Shown: positions 1,402 through 46,601 of the stretch, in pieces
Numbering within the stretch: the first letter of the stretch is position 1
Layout: each line of letters starts with the position of its first letter
Assembly (NCBI RefSeq): GCF_056712565.1
Contig: NZ_CM160072.1
DNA: 64,000 nucleotides
Direction: 5' to 3' (one strand)
Position numbers and translations under genes: made by a program
The notes under the pieces: generated by a model
What the model saw: only the letters and a program-made list of their open reading frames with translations
What the model was told of the DNA's origin: nothing
Database searches by the model: none

Positions 1402-2943
<1,542 letters not shown>

Positions 2944-3028
2944 CCTTAAAGAAGCGTACTTTGCAGTGCTCACACAGATTGTCTGATAGAAAGTGAAAAG
3001 CAAGGCGTCTTGCGAAGCAGACTGATAC

Positions 3029-3104
3029 GTCCCCTTCGTCTAGAGGCCCAGGACACCGCCCTTTCACGGCGGTAACAGGGGTTCGAATCCCCTAGGGGAC
3101 GCCA
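3029..3104 (+). tRNA. gltU: tRNA-Glu (UUC) in the 16S-23S spacer
   Basis: gtccccttcgtctagaggcccaggacaccgccctttcacggcggtaacaggggttcgaatcccctaggggacgcca; cloverleaf with CCA end. Confidence 0.92.
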
Positions 3105-3297
3105 CTTGCTGGTTTGTGAGTGAAAGTCACCTGCCTTAATATCTCAAAACTCATCTTCGGGTGATGTTTGAGATATTTGCTCTTTAAAAATCTGGATCAA
3201 GCTGAAAATTGAAACACTGAACAACGAAAGTTGTTCGTGAGTCTCTCAAATTTTCGCAACACGATGATGGATCGCAAGAAACATCTTCGGGTTGTGA

Positions 3298-6201
<2,904 letters not shown>

Positions 6202-6294
6202 ACAACGCCGAAGATGTTTTGGCGGATGAGAGAAGATTTTCAGCCTGATACAGATTAGATTAACCGGCGACAAGCGGGTTAATGAAACAGAATT

Positions 6295-6414
6295 TGCCTG
6301 GCGGCCTTAGCGCGGTGGTCCCACCTGACCCCATGCCGAACTCAGAAGTGAAACGCCGTAGCGCCGATGGTAGTGTGGGGTCTCCCCATGCGAGAGTAGG
6401 GAACTGCCAGGCAT
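6295..6414 (+). rRNA. rrfC: 5S ribosomal RNA
   Basis: tgcctggcggccttagcgcggtggtcccacctgaccccatgccgaactcagaagtgaaacgccgtagcgccgatggtagtgtggggtctccccatgcgagagtagggaactgccaggcat; 120 nt. Confidence 0.93.
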
Positions 6415-6465
6415 CAAATTTAGCAGTAAGCCGGTTATAAACCGGTGGTTGTAAAAGAATTCGGT

Positions 6466-6542
6466 GGAGCGGTAGTTCAGTCGGTTAGAATACCTGCCTG
6501 TCACGCAGGGGGTCGCGGGTTCGAGTCCCGTCCGTTCCGCCA
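6466..6542 (+). tRNA. aspT: tRNA-Asp (GUC)
   Basis: ggagcggtagttcagtcggttagaatacctgcctgtcacgcagggggtcgcgggttcgagtcccgtccgttccgcca. Confidence 0.92.
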
Positions 6543-6550
6543 CCCTAATT

Positions 6551-6626
6551 AGGGGCGTAGTTCAATTGGTAGAGCACCGGTCTCCAAAACCGGGTGTTGG
6601 GAGTTCGAGTCTCTCCGCCCCTGCCA
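6551..6626 (+). tRNA. trpT: tRNA-Trp (CCA)
   Basis: aggggcgtagttcaattggtagagcaccggtctccaaaaccgggtgttgggagttcgagtctctccgcccctgcca. Confidence 0.92.
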
Positions 6627-9563: not shown

Positions 9564-9915
9564 AAGCCCTCCTTGAGTCACCATTATGTGCATAAGATAT
9601 CGCTGCTGTAGCCCGCTAATTCGTGAATTTTAGTGGCTGATTCCTGTTTATTTGTGCAAGTGAAGTTGAGTTGTTCTGGCGGTGGAATGATGCTCGCAAA
9701 AATGCAGCGTGCAAAGGATGAACTACGAGGAAGGGAACAACATTCATACTGAAATTGAATTTTTTTCACTCACTATTTTCTTTTTAAAAAACAACAATTT
9801 CTCTTGAAATTATTAAAGACATCATAAAAATCGGCCAAAAAATATCTTGTGCTATTCGCAAAATCTATGGTAACTCTTTAGGCATTCCTTCGAACAAGAT
9901 GCAAGAAAAGACAAA

Positions 9916-10014
9916 ATGACAGCCCTTCTACGAGTGATTAGCCTGGTCGTGATTAGCGTGGTGGTGATTATTATCCCACCGTGCGGGGCTGCACTTGGAC
10001 GAGGAAAGGCTTAG
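9916..10014 (+). CDS. ilvL: ilvGMEDA leader peptide (Ile/Val/Leu-rich attenuation peptide)
   Basis: atgacagcccttctacgagtgattagcctggtcgtgattagcgtggtggtgattattatcccaccgtgcggggctgcacttggacgaggaaaggcttag = MTALLRVISLVVISVVVIIIPPCGAALGRGKA, 32 aa. Confidence 0.85.
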   Translation: MTALLRVISLVVISVVVIIIPPCGAALGRGKA

Positions 10015-10035
10015 AGATCAAGCCTTAACGAACTA

Positions 10036-10070
10036 AGACCCCCGCACCGAAAGGTCCGGGGGTTTTTTTT
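10036..10070 (+). terminator. ilv attenuator (rho-independent terminator)
   Basis: agacccccgcaccgaaaggtccgggggttttttttg: GC-rich hairpin plus T8 run directly after ilvL. Confidence 0.85.
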
Positions 10071-10100
10071 GACCTTAAAAACATAACTGAGGAGCAGACA

Positions 10101-10151
10101 ATGAATAACAGCACAAAATTCTGTTTCTCAAGATTCAGGACGGGGAACTAA
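10101..10151 (+). CDS. ilvX: small protein IlvX (16 aa)
   Basis: atgaataacagcacaaaattctgtttctcaagattcaggacggggaactaa = [16 protein letters not shown] between attenuator and ilvG. Confidence 0.5.
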
Positions 10152-24350: not shown

Positions 24351-24480
24351 AGTGTGGTAGAATATCAGCTTACTATTGCTTTACGAAAGCGTATCCGGTG
24401 AAATAAAGTCAACCTTTAGTTGGTTAATGTTACACCAACAACGAAACCAACACGCCAGGCTTATTCCTGTGGAGTTATAT

Positions 24481-24810
24481 ATGAGCGATAAAATTATTCA
24501 CCTGACTGACGACAGTTTTGACACGGATGTACTCAAAGCGGACGGGGCGATCCTCGTCGATTTCTGGGCAGAGTGGTGCGGTCCGTGCAAAATGATCGCC
24601 CCGATTCTGGATGAAATCGCTGACGAATATCAGGGCAAACTGACCGTTGCAAAACTGAACATCGATCAAAACCCTGGCACTGCGCCGAAATATGGCATCC
24701 GTGGTATCCCGACTCTGCTGCTGTTCAAAAACGGTGAAGTGGCGGCAACCAAAGTGGGCGCACTGTCTAAAGGTCAGTTGAAAGAGTTCCTCGACGCTAA
24801 CCTGGCGTAA
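24481..24810 (+). CDS. trxA: thioredoxin 1
   Basis: Track ORF 24376..24810; known protein [38 protein letters not shown] (109 aa) with WCGPC active site. Confidence 0.95.
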
Positions 24811-41094: not shown

Positions 41095-41171
<77 letters not shown>

Positions 41172-41228
41172 TTTAGTCCCGGCGCTTGAGCTGCGGTGGT
41201 AGTAATACCGCGTAACAAGATTTGTAGT

Positions 41229-41305
41229 GGTGGCTATAGCTCAGTTGGTAGAGCCCTGGATTGTGATTCCAGTTGTCGTGGGTTCGAATCCCATTAGCCA
41301 CCCCA
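41229..41305 (+). tRNA. hisR: tRNA-His (GUG) with extra 5' G
   Basis: ggtggctatagctcagttggtagagccctggattgtgattccagttgtcgtgggttcgaatcccattagccacccca. Confidence 0.92.
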
Positions 41306-41325
41306 TTATTAGAAGTTGTGACAAT

Positions 41326-41412
41326 GCGAAGGTGGCGGAATTGGTAGACGCGCTAGCTTCAGGTGTTAGTGTCCTTACGGACGTGGGGGTTCAAGTCCCC
41401 CCCCTCGCACCA
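41326..41412 (+). tRNA. leuT: tRNA-Leu (CAG), long variable arm
   Basis: gcgaaggtggcggaattggtagacgcgctagcttcaggtgttagtgtccttacggacgtgggggttcaagtcccccccctcgcacca. Confidence 0.92.
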
Positions 41413-41454
41413 CGACTTTAAAGAATTGAACTAAAAATTCAAAAAGCAGTATTT

Positions 41455-41531
41455 CGGCGAGTAGCGCAGCTTGGTAGCGCAACTGGTTTGGGACCAGTGG
41501 GTCGGAGGTTCGAATCCTCTCTCGCCGACCA
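41455..41531 (+). tRNA. proM: tRNA-Pro (UGG)
   Basis: cggcgagtagcgcagcttggtagcgcaactggtttgggaccagtgggtcggaggttcgaatcctctctcgccgacca. Confidence 0.92.
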
Positions 41532-43070: not shown

Positions 43071-44726
43071 TTAGTCAGATTTAATCTGCGCGCGTGGTGG
43101 ATATTTTTTCAGGATCTCCATATACGCGTGCATTTCGGTCTGTAGCGGTACACCCATCGGAATATGGCGCACGCCGATAGAGTCGCTTTCCTGCGGATCG
43201 GTGTACAGGTTAAACACCGACGATCCCGCCGTTTGCATTACTGTGCCGGTGAATCCACCCTGATATCCGCTCTGGGTATAAGCGTAAGGTTGCTGAATCA
43301 GGACGTGATACTTGAACTCATCCATACGCACAGCAGAAAGTTTACCGTTGAGGAAGTAGTGCTCGGCCTTACGGTTAGACTGACCATTTGTTCCCAGGAA
43401 GAAAGATGTCTGGTCCACACCATCGATAAAGGTGGTTTTCGGTACTAAATTCGCTACTTTCGCCCCAGGATGCCCCGCCAGATCCAGCGCCGTAGGGAAG
43501 AGATCCGCCAGATCGACAATGCCGTCAGATTTACGCGGTTGGATCATGCCTTTCCAGTAAACGAAGGTTGGCACACGAACGCCGCCTTCCCATGTAGAAC
43601 CTTTCGCACCGCGGAACGGCGTGCGACCGTGCGGCGGAACTTCGGCTTCCGGACCGTTATCAGAGGTGAACACAATCAGCGTGTTATCAAGCTGACCGTT
43701 TTTCTCCAGTGCTTTATACAGATTGGCGAAGATATCGTTCATCTCCACCATGCAGTCGCCGTAAGAGGTGCGCGCCGGAGAGCTACCCGCATATTTGGCG
43801 TTCGGGTAGTTATCGAAGTGACAGCCGCGAGTGCCGTAATAGAGGAAGAAAGGCTTATCACTCTTCGCCATCTTGTCGAGGAACTTAACGCCATATTCCA
43901 TCCAGCGTTGATCCAGGTCTTCCATATATTTCGGCGTAATGTCGGCAATGGCTTCCTGTTCACCGCCGCGCACGGCATGAACGTCATCTTTGCTGAACGG
44001 CAGTTTTTGGATGTATTCAGAACGAGCCGGGCTCAGGGCGACTTCCGGGTTGACATGAACATCACGCCATTCGGTATACATATCGGACACCGAGTTAAAG
44101 CCGCGGAAATCATCAAAGCCAACGTTCTGCGGCTGCGACTCTTTGTTTTCCCCCATATGCCATTTCCCGATAGCCTGGGTGACGTAGCCCTGATCGTGCA
44201 GCAACTGCGGCAGCGTGGTTAACCCTTGCAGACCGCCCGGTTGCCCGTACATTGGCGGCATCAGAATGCCGTGGTGGATGGAGTATTGTCCGGTGAGAAT
44301 CGTGGCGCGGGTTGGGGAAGAACTCGGTTGAGAATACGCCGAAGTTAAAATCAGCCCCTGGCTGGCAACGGCGTCGATATCTGGTGTAGGGTTACCCACC
44401 GCCACGCCGCCGCCGTTAAAGCCAACGTCCATCCAGCCCACATCATCCAGCAAGAAAACAACCACGTTCGGTTTCTTACCGGTTTTTTTCTCAAGTTCCG
44501 CCAGTTTCTGCTGGGTTTCTTTGTCTTGTGCAGGATGCTGCATCACCGGCATCATGTTGTCGGCAATAGTGGTCGCCGGTTTAACCAGATACTGGTTTGG
44601 GTGATCGTATCCGGCAAAGCCTTTGCGTGCGGTGGCGGTTGACGGGGTATCTGCTGCGCTGGCTATGAGAGGAAGAGCTGCGGCGACAGCAACAACAAGA
44701 AGTTTGGGTGAAAACGAAAATTCCAT
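43071..44726 (-). CDS. aslA: arylsulfatase-family periplasmic protein
   Basis: 551-aa ORF with N-terminal signal peptide ([24 protein letters not shown]); sulfatase fold. Confidence 0.92.
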
Positions 44727-45150
44727 GCAAAATGCTCCGGTTTCATGTCGTCAAAATGATGACGTAATTAAGCATTGATAATTGAGATCCCTCTCCCTGA
44801 CAGGATGATTGCATAAATAATAGTGATAAAAATAAATTATTTATTTATCCAGAAAATGAATTGAAAAATCAGGAGAGCATTTTCAATCCTACCTCTGGCG
44901 CAGGTGATATGTAAGGCGGTGATGTTATATCGCGTTGATTATTGATGCTGTTTTTAGTTTTAACGGCAATTAATATATATGTTATTAATTGAATGACTTT
45001 TATTATTCATTATATATATGTGTAGAATTGTGCGCAGGAGAAATATTCACTCAGGAAGTTATTACTCAGGAAGCAAAGAGGATTACAGAATTATCTCATA
45101 ACAAGTGTTAAGGGATGTTATTTCCCGGTTCTCTGTGGCATAATAAACGA

Positions 45151-45357
45151 GTAGATGCTCATTCCATCTCTTATGTTCGCCTTAGTGCCTCATAAACTCC
45201 GGAATGACGCAGAGCCGTTTACGGTGCTTATCGTCCACTGACAGATGTCGCTTATGCCTCATCAGACACCATGGACACAACGTTGAGTGAAGCACCCACT
45301 TGTTGTCATACAGACCTGTTTTAACGCCTGCTCCGTAATAAGAGCAGGCGTTTTTTT
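45151..45357 (+). ncRNA. glmZ: GlmZ small regulatory RNA
   Basis: gtagatgctcattccatctcttatgttcgccttagtgcctcataaactccggaatgacgc...ctgctccgtaataagagcaggcgttttttt matches the ~207-nt GlmZ sequence incl. intrinsic terminator; track ORF 45262..45612(-) over it is spurious. Confidence 0.85.
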
Positions 45358-45404
45358 ATATATCAGAAAGGCCCCGGAGGTGCTTGCCTCCGGGTGAGAA
45401 AGAG

Positions 45405-46601
45405 CTACTGTGGCGGGTTGTTCTGCAACGTTAACATCAAACCGTCGCGACGCATCGCTGCGGCTTCTTCCGGCTTGTGCAGTCTGTCCAGCGCGTCGGC
45501 AAGCCATGCGTAATCGTAGGCGTCCGGACGTTGTTTCAGCGCTGCGCGGAAGGCGAGCGATGCTTCCTGCCATTCTCCGTGTTTCATCAGCGACTGACCC
45601 AGTGTGCTCCACAACAGCGGGCGATCGCCCACGTTTTTGATCTGTTGGCGCAGCACTTTTTCCAGCTGTTCCGGGTTATTGGTTTTCAGACGCGGGATCG
45701 GCAGCAGCAGGCGATCGTCATACTGGCGTTTCAGGCCATCGATGATAATTTGCTGGGCAGTATCATGATCGTCACACTCAATAAGATGTTCCGCCATTGC
45801 CACCTGCAAGGCCACCTGATGACGCGTTTTCCGGCTTTGGTTTTTCCACCAGTTACGCAAACCTTCACTACCGTTATCGGCACGCGCCTGATCCATCAGG
45901 CCAATCCATGCCTGTTGTTCCAGCATTGCACGATGTTCTTCATCACCAACATGGGCTTTCGCCATTGATGGGATGATATCCAGCAGCGAACTCCATGCAC
46001 CAGTGCGGATATACGCCTGTTCCGCCAGACGTAATACTTCCGGATGGCGTGGCGTAACTTCCAGCAGCTTATCCACGCCGTGACGTGCTGCATGGTTTTC
46101 ATTACGGGCCAGTTGCAGACGTACACGGGTGATTTCTACCGGAATGGTGTCATTGCCGGCCAGCTCCGCTGCGCGTTCCAGATGTTGGTTGGCGCGTGCT
46201 TCATCACCACGTTGTTGCGCGGCTTCGGCTGCCAGTAGATAGTTCACCACCGGTTGTTCAGCGTGATCGGCATTTTTCGCCATCAGCTTTTCAACTTGCT
46301 GATAATCGCCTTCCGCCAGTTTCAGCAGCGCCTGTTCGGTCTGCTTACGTGCACGGCGACGCTTACGTCCGACAAACCACCCACGGGTGTGCGCGCCTGT
46401 GCGGAAGATTCGCCGCAGTAGCCACTCAATGGCAAACAGCACTACCATCGCCAGAATCAAAATAATCGCGAGGCCCGTGACGCTGGTTTCAATATTGTAG
46501 TTGTCGGTCTGGATCAGCACGTAACCCTGATGGCCGGCAATCATCGGGCCAACCACGATCCCCGCAATCAGCAACACAAAGAGCAATAACACTTTTAGCA
46601 T
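45405..46601 (-). CDS. hemY: HemY (inner-membrane TPR-like protein)
   Basis: 398-aa ORF; N-terminal TM segments MLKVLLLFVLLIAGIVVGPMIAG. Confidence 0.92.
   Translation of the reverse strand: MLKVLLLFVLLIAGIVVGPMIAGHQGYVLIQTDNYNIETSVTGLAIILILAMVVLFAIEWLLRRIFRTGAHTRGWFVGRKRRRARKQTEQALLKLAEGDYQQVEKLMAKNADHAEQPVVNYLLAAEAAQQRGDEARANQHLERAAELAGNDTIPVEITRVRLQLARNENHAARHGVDKLLEVTPRHPEVLRLAEQAYIRTGAWSSLLDIIPSMAKAHVGDEEHRAMLEQQAWIGLMDQARADNGSEGLRNWWKNQSRKTRHQVALQVAMAEHLIECDDHDTAQQIIIDGLKRQYDDRLLLPIPRLKTNNPEQLEKVLRQQIKNVGDRPLLWSTLGQSLMKHGEWQEASLAFRAALKQRPDAYDYAWLADALDRLHKPEEAAAMRRDGLMLTLQNNPPQ

What the first reader, a model, noticed from the sequence alone, without database searches (positions are those of the whole stretch)
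45151..45357. GlmZ sRNA present but absent from any ORF-based annotation
The sequence matches the GlmZ regulatory RNA (activator of glmS translation, processed by RNase E/RapZ) including its terminal hairpin gagcaggcgttttttt. The ORF track instead shows an antisense 116-aa ORF (45262..45612) across it and the hemY 3' end, which should not be annotated as a gene.
Basis: partly seen in the sequence, partly recalled or inferred. Interest (0 to 1): 0.25.

Follow-up and report, generated by a model that had tools for sequence, protein, structure and literature searches.

The report
Known GlmZ small RNA gene

Summary
Both the observation and the interpretation are confirmed. Rfam's GlmZ_SraJ model (RF00083) matches window 45151..45357 (+) end to end. 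The 207 nt are 100% identical to E. coli K-12 glmZ. They lie in the canonical place, between aslA (-) and hemY (-). All the expected parts are present: stem-loops SL1 and SL2, a single-stranded region complementary to the glmS leader, and an 11-bp terminator followed by a U-tail. The sequence is at least 99% identical in 5424 of 5426 complete E. coli genomes, so it is more conserved than its flanks.

The 116-aa ORF at 45262..45612 (-) exists but is spurious. It has a GTG start, runs out of frame over 208 nt of hemY, and has no Pfam match. RefSeq does not annotate it on identical DNA. In K-12 it is cut to 64 aa by a SNP that is silent in hemY.

The mechanism is taken from the K-12 literature by sequence identity and was not tested here. 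GlmZ, helped by Hfq, opens an inhibitory hairpin in the glmS leader. RapZ and RNase E inactivate GlmZ by cutting it in its pairing region. The element is already known and of low interest. The practical point is that RefSeq/PGAP leaves glmZ unannotated in the records I sampled.

The parts
45115..45120 (+). Putative -35 hexamer ATGTTA of the glmZ sigma-70 promoter (3 of 6 matches to TTGACA, 18-bp spacer)
   Evidence: Read from the sequence. PMC3045617 reports that the E. coli glmZ -35 has three consensus-matching bases, that sequence upstream of -40 is dispensable, and that removing sequence upstream of -20 removes the -35 motif. Which hexamer it is remains my inference, because the paper's figure is not available to me. 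The consensus scan did not report this promoter because its -35 falls below the 4-of-6 threshold.
45136..45144 (+). Extended -10 element TGgCATAAT (-10 = CATAAT at 45139..45144, 6 nt upstream of +1)
   Evidence: Read from the sequence. It is identical to K-12. PMC3045617 shows that mutating the -10 abolishes glmZ'-lacZ expression in K-12.
45151..45357 (+). glmZ: the full-length 207-nt GlmZ small RNA (formerly SraJ/RyiA)
   Evidence: RF00083 at 218.4 bits, E = 3.4e-56, full model. 100% identical to K-12. The 207-nt primary transcript length comes from PMC4152352. The MFE is -60.8 kcal/mol, z = -3.33 against shuffles.
45151..45215 (+). Stem-loop SL1 (nt 1-65), a RapZ contact
   Evidence: Rfam consensus structure in the cmscan alignment. 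The core of the stem is also recovered by the MFE fold. Its role comes from PMC9841335.
45223..45297 (+). Central stem-loop SL2 (nt 73-147), bound by RapZ and RNase E and decisive for cleavage
   Evidence: Rfam consensus structure and MFE fold. Its role comes from PMC4737144 and PMC9841335.
45298..45322 (+). Single-stranded region (nt 148-172). It holds the glmS pairing blocks UUGUUGUC (45300..45307) and GACCUGU (45313..45319), the main Hfq site, and the RNase E cut at about nt 151 (about 45301)
   Evidence: Duplex prediction against the glmS leader of a strain whose glmZ intergenic region is identical gives -19.2 kcal/mol. GlmZ nt 150-157 and 163-169 pair with leader positions -40..-34 and -29..-22. 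The cleavage position (~151 nt product) and the Hfq role come from PMC4152352 and PMC4737144.
45323..45357 (+). SL3 intrinsic terminator (11-bp stem, 8-nt loop, 45323..45352) plus U-tail (to 45357)
   Evidence: Terminator scan, Rfam structure and MFE fold.
45262..45612 (-). Spurious 116-aa ORF (GTG start) that should not be annotated
   Evidence: Listed mechanically. No Pfam hit. Out of frame with hemY over 208 nt, and GC by codon position is 0.61/0.60/0.45 against hemY's 0.68/0.38/0.59. Not annotated in Nissle 1917. In K-12, CAA becomes TAA at codon 65, giving 64 aa.
45405..46601 (-). hemY, the convergent downstream neighbour that defines the synteny
   Evidence: Pfam HemY_N at 2e-35 plus TPR repeats. 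RefSeq annotates hemY on identical DNA.
43071..44726 (-). aslA (arylsulfatase), the upstream divergent neighbour
   Evidence: Pfam Sulfatase at 4e-71. RefSeq annotates aslA.

Best explanation
Window 45151..45357 (+) is the glmZ gene of an E. coli chromosome; the 678-bp intergenic region is identical to strains such as Nissle 1917, ATCC 11775 and NU14. A weak-(-35), extended-(-10) sigma-70 promoter produces a 207-nt RNA made of SL1, SL2, a ~25-nt single-stranded region and the SL3 terminator with its U-tail. With Hfq bound to the single-stranded region and U-tail, GlmZ pairs with the 5' half of an inhibitory hairpin in the glmS leader. That frees the ribosome-binding site and raises synthesis of GlcN6P synthase. 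When GlcN6P is plentiful, the adaptor RapZ binds SL1 and SL2 and presents GlmZ to RNase E. RNase E cuts at about nt 151, inside the pairing region, and so inactivates GlmZ. When GlcN6P is scarce, the decoy RNA GlmY titrates RapZ and full-length GlmZ accumulates. Shown here: identity, anatomy, synteny, conservation and complementarity to the glmS leader. Inferred from the K-12 literature by 100% sequence identity: transcription, processing and regulatory activity. The overlapping 116-aa ORF on the minus strand is a chance ORF.
For: The Rfam GlmZ_SraJ hit covers the full model at 218.4 bits against a gathering score of 60. All 207 nt are identical to K-12 glmZ. Over 345 aligned bases only five flanking SNPs occur, and none falls in the promoter hexamers. 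K-12 RefSeq annotates ncRNA glmZ b4456 starting at the homologous base. The aslA / glmZ / hemY-hemX-hemD synteny is present, as described in PMC3045617. The terminator was found by scan. The fold is more stable than shuffles, z = -3.33. The single-stranded region is complementary to glmS leader positions -40..-22, at -19.2 kcal/mol. In the leader's own fold that segment is the 5' half of a hairpin reaching the AUG. The leader sequences were read from Nissle 1917 and K-12. The 207 nt are at least 99% identical in 5424 of 5426 complete E. coli genomes. The whole 678-bp intergenic region is at least 99% identical in only 1154 genomes. The mechanism comes from PMC4152352, PMC4737144, PMC9841335 and PMC3045617.
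Against: Nothing contradicts it. There are caveats. No expression data exist for this strain. The generic sigma-70 scan did not flag the promoter because its -35 is too weak. On its own the duplex energy is only modestly better than shuffled controls: z = -1.9, with 49 of 1000 shuffles doing as well. The pairing argument therefore rests on identity with the experimentally validated K-12 pair. The partners rapZ, glmY, hfq, rne and glmS lie outside the window.
Confidence: 0.98

Rival explanations
1. The 116-aa ORF at 45262..45612 (-) is a real protein-coding gene overlapping glmZ and hemY.
For: It is an open frame of 116 codons with a GTG start.
Against: It has no Pfam family. It runs out of frame inside hemY for 208 nt and antisense through a conserved sRNA for 96 nt, with atypical GC by codon position. 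PGAP does not annotate it on identical DNA. In K-12 a hemY-synonymous C-to-T change creates a stop at codon 65, leaving 64 aa. So the frame is not kept open even within the species.
Confidence: 0.01
2. The element is the paralogous decoy GlmY, or a GlmY-like copy (same Rfam clan CL00011), rather than the base-pairing GlmZ.
For: GlmY and GlmZ are homologous and share SL1, SL2 and SL3. A lower-scoring hit from the same clan overlapped this position and was suppressed.
Against: The GlmZ model is the best in the clan, at 218 bits. The sequence equals K-12 glmZ. It sits beside hemY rather than next to the glrK/qseE locus (PMC3045617). It carries the long ~25-nt single-stranded region complementary to glmS. 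GlmY has a 12-nt region with no such complementarity (PMC4737144).
Confidence: 0.005
3. The gene is intact but its expression differs in this lineage, either through the -23 promoter-spacer SNP (G at 45128, A in K-12) or through divergence further upstream in the aslA-glmZ spacer.
For: One SNP lies between the -35 and -10 elements. The 678-bp intergenic region varies more across E. coli than the RNA does.
Against: Both hexamers, the TG motif and the spacer length are unchanged. In K-12, sequence upstream of -40 is dispensable and the promoter is constitutive (PMC3045617).
Confidence: 0.03

Closest known systems
E. coli K-12 GlmZ (SraJ/RyiA; b4456; Rfam RF00083)
   Same: All 207 nt, the transcription start, the extended -10, the terminator, the neighbours aslA and hemY, and complementarity to the glmS leader.
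   Different: The RNA does not differ at all. The flanks differ at one SNP at -23 and four SNPs in the 47-bp glmZ-hemY spacer. The K-12 RefSeq feature is drawn as 172 nt and stops just before the terminator stem. The literature and Rfam both give 207 nt.
GlmY (SroF/Tke1; Rfam clan CL00011)
   Same: It is a homologous three-stem-loop RNA bound by RapZ (PMC4737144).
   Different: [quoted passage not shown] The window element has none of these features.
Salmonella and Yersinia glmZ
   Same: The same RNA family, also linked to hemCDXY (PMC3045617).
   Different: Those genes have sigma-54 promoters with GlrR (QseF) and IHF sites. E. coli glmZ, including this copy, has a single constitutive sigma-70 promoter. 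The TGGCAT just upstream of +1 resembles a -24 sigma-54 element, but I could identify no -12 GC element by eye.

Membership tests
GlmZ_SraJ (Rfam RF00083) | The covariance-model score reaches the curated gathering threshold over the full model | tested here: met
   218.4 bits against 60, E = 3.4e-56, model positions 1-214 of 214, not truncated.
GlmZ_SraJ (Rfam RF00083) | Three stem-loops (SL1, SL2 with its lateral bulge, SL3 terminator) with canonical pairing | tested here: met
   No consensus pair is flagged non-canonical in the cmscan alignment. The MFE fold recovers the SL1 core, SL2 and SL3, z = -3.33. The terminator scan agrees.
GlmZ_SraJ (Rfam RF00083) | A long single-stranded region between SL2 and SL3 that is complementary to the glmS leader (this separates GlmZ from GlmY) | tested here: met
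   GlmZ nt 150-157 and 163-169 pair with glmS leader positions -40..-34 and -29..-22, at -19.2 kcal/mol. The energy alone is only modestly above shuffles, z = -1.9. Both partners are identical to the validated K-12 sequences in the pairing segments.
GlmZ_SraJ (Rfam RF00083) | Genomic position next to the hemCDXY cluster in convergent orientation | tested here: met
   hemY at 45405..46601 (-), followed by hemX and hemD. This synteny is described in PMC3045617.
GlmZ_SraJ (Rfam RF00083) | Sequence identity to the experimentally characterised E. coli K-12 GlmZ | tested here: met
   207 of 207 nt identical.
GlmZ_SraJ (Rfam RF00083) | A functional sigma-70 promoter starting transcription at G45151 | tested here: inconclusive
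   The generic scan does not report it. The region -40..+1 is identical to the experimentally mapped K-12 promoter except for one spacer SNP at -23.
GlmZ_SraJ (Rfam RF00083) | RapZ-dependent RNase E cleavage at about nt 151, Hfq dependence, and activation of glmS translation | not testable with these tools
   Inferred from K-12 experiments (PMC4152352, PMC4737144 and PMC9841335) through sequence identity.
GlmY_tke1 (Rfam clan CL00011) | A short single-stranded region without complementarity to glmS, located upstream of glrK/qseE | tested here: not met
   The single-stranded region is ~25 nt and complementary to glmS. The neighbours are aslA and hemY. The GlmZ model outscores any overlapping member of the clan.

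The most novel reading that the evidence does not exclude
The evidence does not exclude lineage-specific regulation of glmZ in this strain. Two routes are conceivable. The -23 spacer SNP could change promoter strength. Read-through from hemY could cross the weak minus-strand hairpin at 45373..45394 and the back of the glmZ terminator, making an antisense RNA that covers the GlmZ pairing region.
Probability: 0.03. Interest if true: 0.2.

Novelty: already known. Interest (0 to 1): 0.05.

Why it matters
There is no new biology here. GlmZ is one of the best-characterised enterobacterial small RNAs, and this copy is identical to the reference. The practical value concerns annotation. ORF-based tracks miss the gene and instead offer a chance antisense ORF. 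The RefSeq/PGAP records I sampled carry no glmZ feature: none was listed under the match in any row. The curated K-12 feature is drawn 35 nt short of the real 3' end. A covariance-model pass should take precedence over ORF calls at this locus.

Tried and rejected
1. RNAduplex of full-length GlmZ against 220 nt of glmU-glmS sequence gave a meaningless -71 kcal/mol structure spanning both molecules. I replaced it with a duplex restricted to the single-stranded region.
2. A shuffle test of that region against the leader was only weakly significant, z = -1.9 with 49 of 1000 shuffles as good. I do not use it as independent proof of targeting.
3. The generic sigma-70 scan missed the known glmZ promoter. 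I read the elements by eye and checked them against PMC3045617.
4. A permissive Rfam scan of 44600..45700 found nothing else credible. The only other hits were chance matches on the minus strand, ncr1175 at 23.7 bits and SNORA68 at 21.6 bits, both far below gathering.
5. I pasted the sequences in by hand instead.
6. Urban and Vogel 2008 could not be retrieved by DOI, so the pairing details come from later open-access papers.
7. The 'hypothetical protein' listed under some glmZ matches is not the 116-aa ORF. It is a separate 196-aa gene inserted between glmZ and hemY in other strains. It has no significant Pfam match and no PADLOC match.

Full report
OBSERVATION. I scanned the whole 64-kb window against Rfam 15 at gathering thresholds. 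The scan places RF00083 (GlmZ_SraJ, 'GlmZ RNA activator of glmS mRNA') at 45151..45357 on the + strand. The score is 218.4 bits against a gathering score of 60, with E = 3.4e-56. The model is covered 1-214 of 214 and the hit is not truncated. The line that flags non-canonical consensus pairs is empty. A permissive scan of 44600..45700 returns the same hit. Its only other results are two chance matches on the minus strand, far below threshold. The quoted 3' end 'gagcaggcgttttttt' is at 45342..45357. It forms the 3' arm and T-tail of a terminator-like hairpin at 45323..45352 with 11 pairs, 7 of them G-C, and an 8-nt loop. The 207-nt RNA folds to -60.8 kcal/mol, against -46.9 +/- 4.2 for dinucleotide shuffles (z = -3.33).

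IDENTITY AND CONTEXT. The 678-bp intergenic region 44727..45404 is 100% identical to many E. coli chromosomes, including Nissle 1917, ATCC 11775 and NU14. It is found in 5425 of 5426 complete E. coli genomes. The neighbours are aslA (43071..44726, -; Pfam Sulfatase 4e-71) and hemY (45405..46601, -; HemY_N 2e-35), followed by hemX and hemD. In K-12 MG1655 the homologous position carries the curated feature 'ncRNA glmZ b4456, small regulatory RNA GlmZ'. I aligned 345 bases of the window to K-12. All 207 nt of the RNA are identical. The only differences are one SNP at 45128 (-23, in the promoter spacer) and four SNPs in the 47-bp glmZ-hemY spacer. The K-12 feature is drawn as 172 nt (3986432..3986603) and ends just before the terminator stem.

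CONSERVATION. The 207 nt alone are at least 99% identical in 5424 of 5426 genomes. The whole intergenic region reaches that level in only 1154 genomes and is 95-99% identical in 4255. The RNA is therefore held more tightly than its flanks.

ANATOMY (window coordinates; +1 = G45151).
- Promoter: an extended -10, TGgCATAAT, at 45136..45144. The best -35 candidate is ATGTTA at 45115..45120, with 3 of 6 matches and an 18-bp spacer.
- The generic scan missed this promoter because of the weak -35.
- It fits the K-12 experiments in PMC3045617. There, sequence upstream of -40 is dispensable, and mutating the three consensus-matching -35 bases or the -10 destroys expression. Neither GlrR nor sigma-54 plays a role, unlike in Salmonella and Yersinia glmZ.
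- SL1 is nt 1-65 (45151..45215).
- SL2 is nt 73-147 (45223..45297).
- The single-stranded region is nt 148-172 (45298..45322).
- SL3 and the U-tail are nt 173-207 (45323..45357).

TARGET COMPLEMENTARITY. glmS is not in the window. I read the glmU-glmS intergenic region from Nissle 1917, whose glmZ intergenic region is identical to the window's, and from K-12. The two leaders are identical across the relevant segment. GlmZ nt 150-157 (UUGUUGUC) and nt 163-169 (GACCUGU) pair with leader positions -29..-22 and -40..-34, at -19.2 kcal/mol. In the leader's own MFE fold that segment is the 5' half of a hairpin whose 3' half reaches the AUG. [quoted passage not shown] The energy is only modestly better than shuffles, z = -1.9. 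The strength of the argument is therefore identity to the validated K-12 pair, not the energy. The reported cleavage at about nt 151 falls inside the first pairing block. [quoted passage not shown]

MECHANISM. This is inferred from the K-12 literature by sequence identity.
- Constitutive sigma-70 transcription yields the 207-nt GlmZ.
- Hfq binds the single-stranded region and the U-tail and promotes pairing with glmS.
- When GlcN6P is ample, the RapZ tetramer binds SL1 and SL2 and recruits RNase E. RNase E also contacts SL2 and SL3 and cuts in the single-stranded region.
- When GlcN6P is scarce, GlmY sequesters RapZ and full-length GlmZ accumulates.

THE ANTISENSE ORF. The ORF at 45262..45612 (-), 116 aa with a GTG start, is real as a string but not as a gene.
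- It lies on the same strand as hemY, out of frame over 208 nt, and runs antisense through 96 nt of GlmZ.
- It has no Pfam hit.
- Its GC by codon position is 0.61/0.60/0.45, unlike hemY's 0.68/0.38/0.59.
- PGAP does not call it on identical DNA.
- In K-12 a C-to-T change turns its codon 65 from CAA to TAA, leaving 64 aa. That change is synonymous in hemY (AAC to AAT, Asn).

COMPARISON AND VERDICT. Every sequence-testable defining feature of GlmZ is met. The features of GlmY are not: it has a short non-complementary single-stranded region and a different locus. The useful residue is an annotation note. No glmZ feature was listed under the match in any sampled RefSeq/PGAP record. The K-12 feature is also 35 nt short at its 3' end.

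SIDE OBSERVATION. Some rows list a 'hypothetical protein' under glmZ. This is not the 116-aa ORF. In 690 of 5426 genomes the 47-bp glmZ-hemY spacer is replaced by about 640 bp. That segment carries a 196-aa ORF of unknown function on the minus strand, and its stop codon abuts the GlmZ U-tail. Its only Pfam hit is a non-significant one (Peptidase_U4, E = 0.053, below cut-off) and it has no PADLOC match. The window lacks this insertion.

Noticed in passing
Not in the window; L005:906-1496 (-), also L006 and L007; corresponds to the window spacer 45358..45404: In 690 of 5426 complete E. coli genomes the 47-bp glmZ-hemY spacer is replaced by about 640 bp. The segment encodes a 196-aa 'hypothetical protein' (WP_001260227.1 / WP_001260226.1) whose stop codon abuts the GlmZ U-tail. 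By identity to the query there are two groups: 105 genomes at 95% or more and 585 genomes at 80-90%. Its only Pfam hit is non-significant (E = 0.053) and it has no PADLOC match. This is a strain-variable accessory gene immediately next to an sRNA terminator.
   Followed up: partly
window 45373..45394: An 8-bp G+C-rich hairpin (CCCGGAGG / CCTCCGGG) lies between the glmZ terminator and the hemY stop codon. On the minus strand it is followed only by a weak U-tract (CCUUUCUG). It is probably the hemY terminator. Together with the back of the glmZ terminator it makes a convergent terminator pair.
   Followed up: partly
L002 2933..3104 (K-12 NC_000913.3 3986432..3986603): The curated K-12 glmZ feature is 172 nt and stops just before the terminator stem. 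That is 35 nt short of the 207-nt primary transcript given in the literature and by Rfam.
   Followed up: yes
window 45049..45058 and 45064..45073: The direct repeat ACTCAGGAAG occurs twice, 15 bp apart, in the AT-rich aslA-glmZ spacer about 80-100 bp upstream of glmZ +1. It is identical in K-12 where the two were aligned. According to PMC3045617, sequence upstream of -40 is dispensable for glmZ, so the repeat may belong to aslA regulation or be a chance feature.
   Followed up: no
window 45136..45150: TGGCAT overlapping the extended -10 resembles the -24 element of a sigma-54 promoter, but no -12 GC element follows at the right spacing. This fits the published view that E. coli glmZ lost the ancestral sigma-54/GlrR control. 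The reading is by eye only.
   Followed up: no
window 9845..10134 (+): An Rfam hit to Rev39_5p_UTR (RF02744, described from soft-rot Enterobacteriaceae) scores 158.8 bits against a gathering score of 88, inside an E. coli window. I did not examine it.
   Followed up: no
window 24411..24510 (+); 3182..3290 (+): TrxA_thermometer (RF02773) scores 78.8 bits. StyR-44 (RF01830) scores 123.6 bits and lies just upstream of the 23S rRNA. Both reach their gathering scores; I did not examine them further.
   Followed up: no
window 1402..6623 and 41095..41528: A complete rrn operon is present: 16S at 1402..2943, a tRNA in the spacer at 3029..3101, 23S at 3298..6201, 5S at 6297..6412 and two distal tRNAs. 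There is also a four-tRNA cluster at 41095..41528. Both fit the rrnC-to-hemY region of the E. coli chromosome.
   Followed up: no
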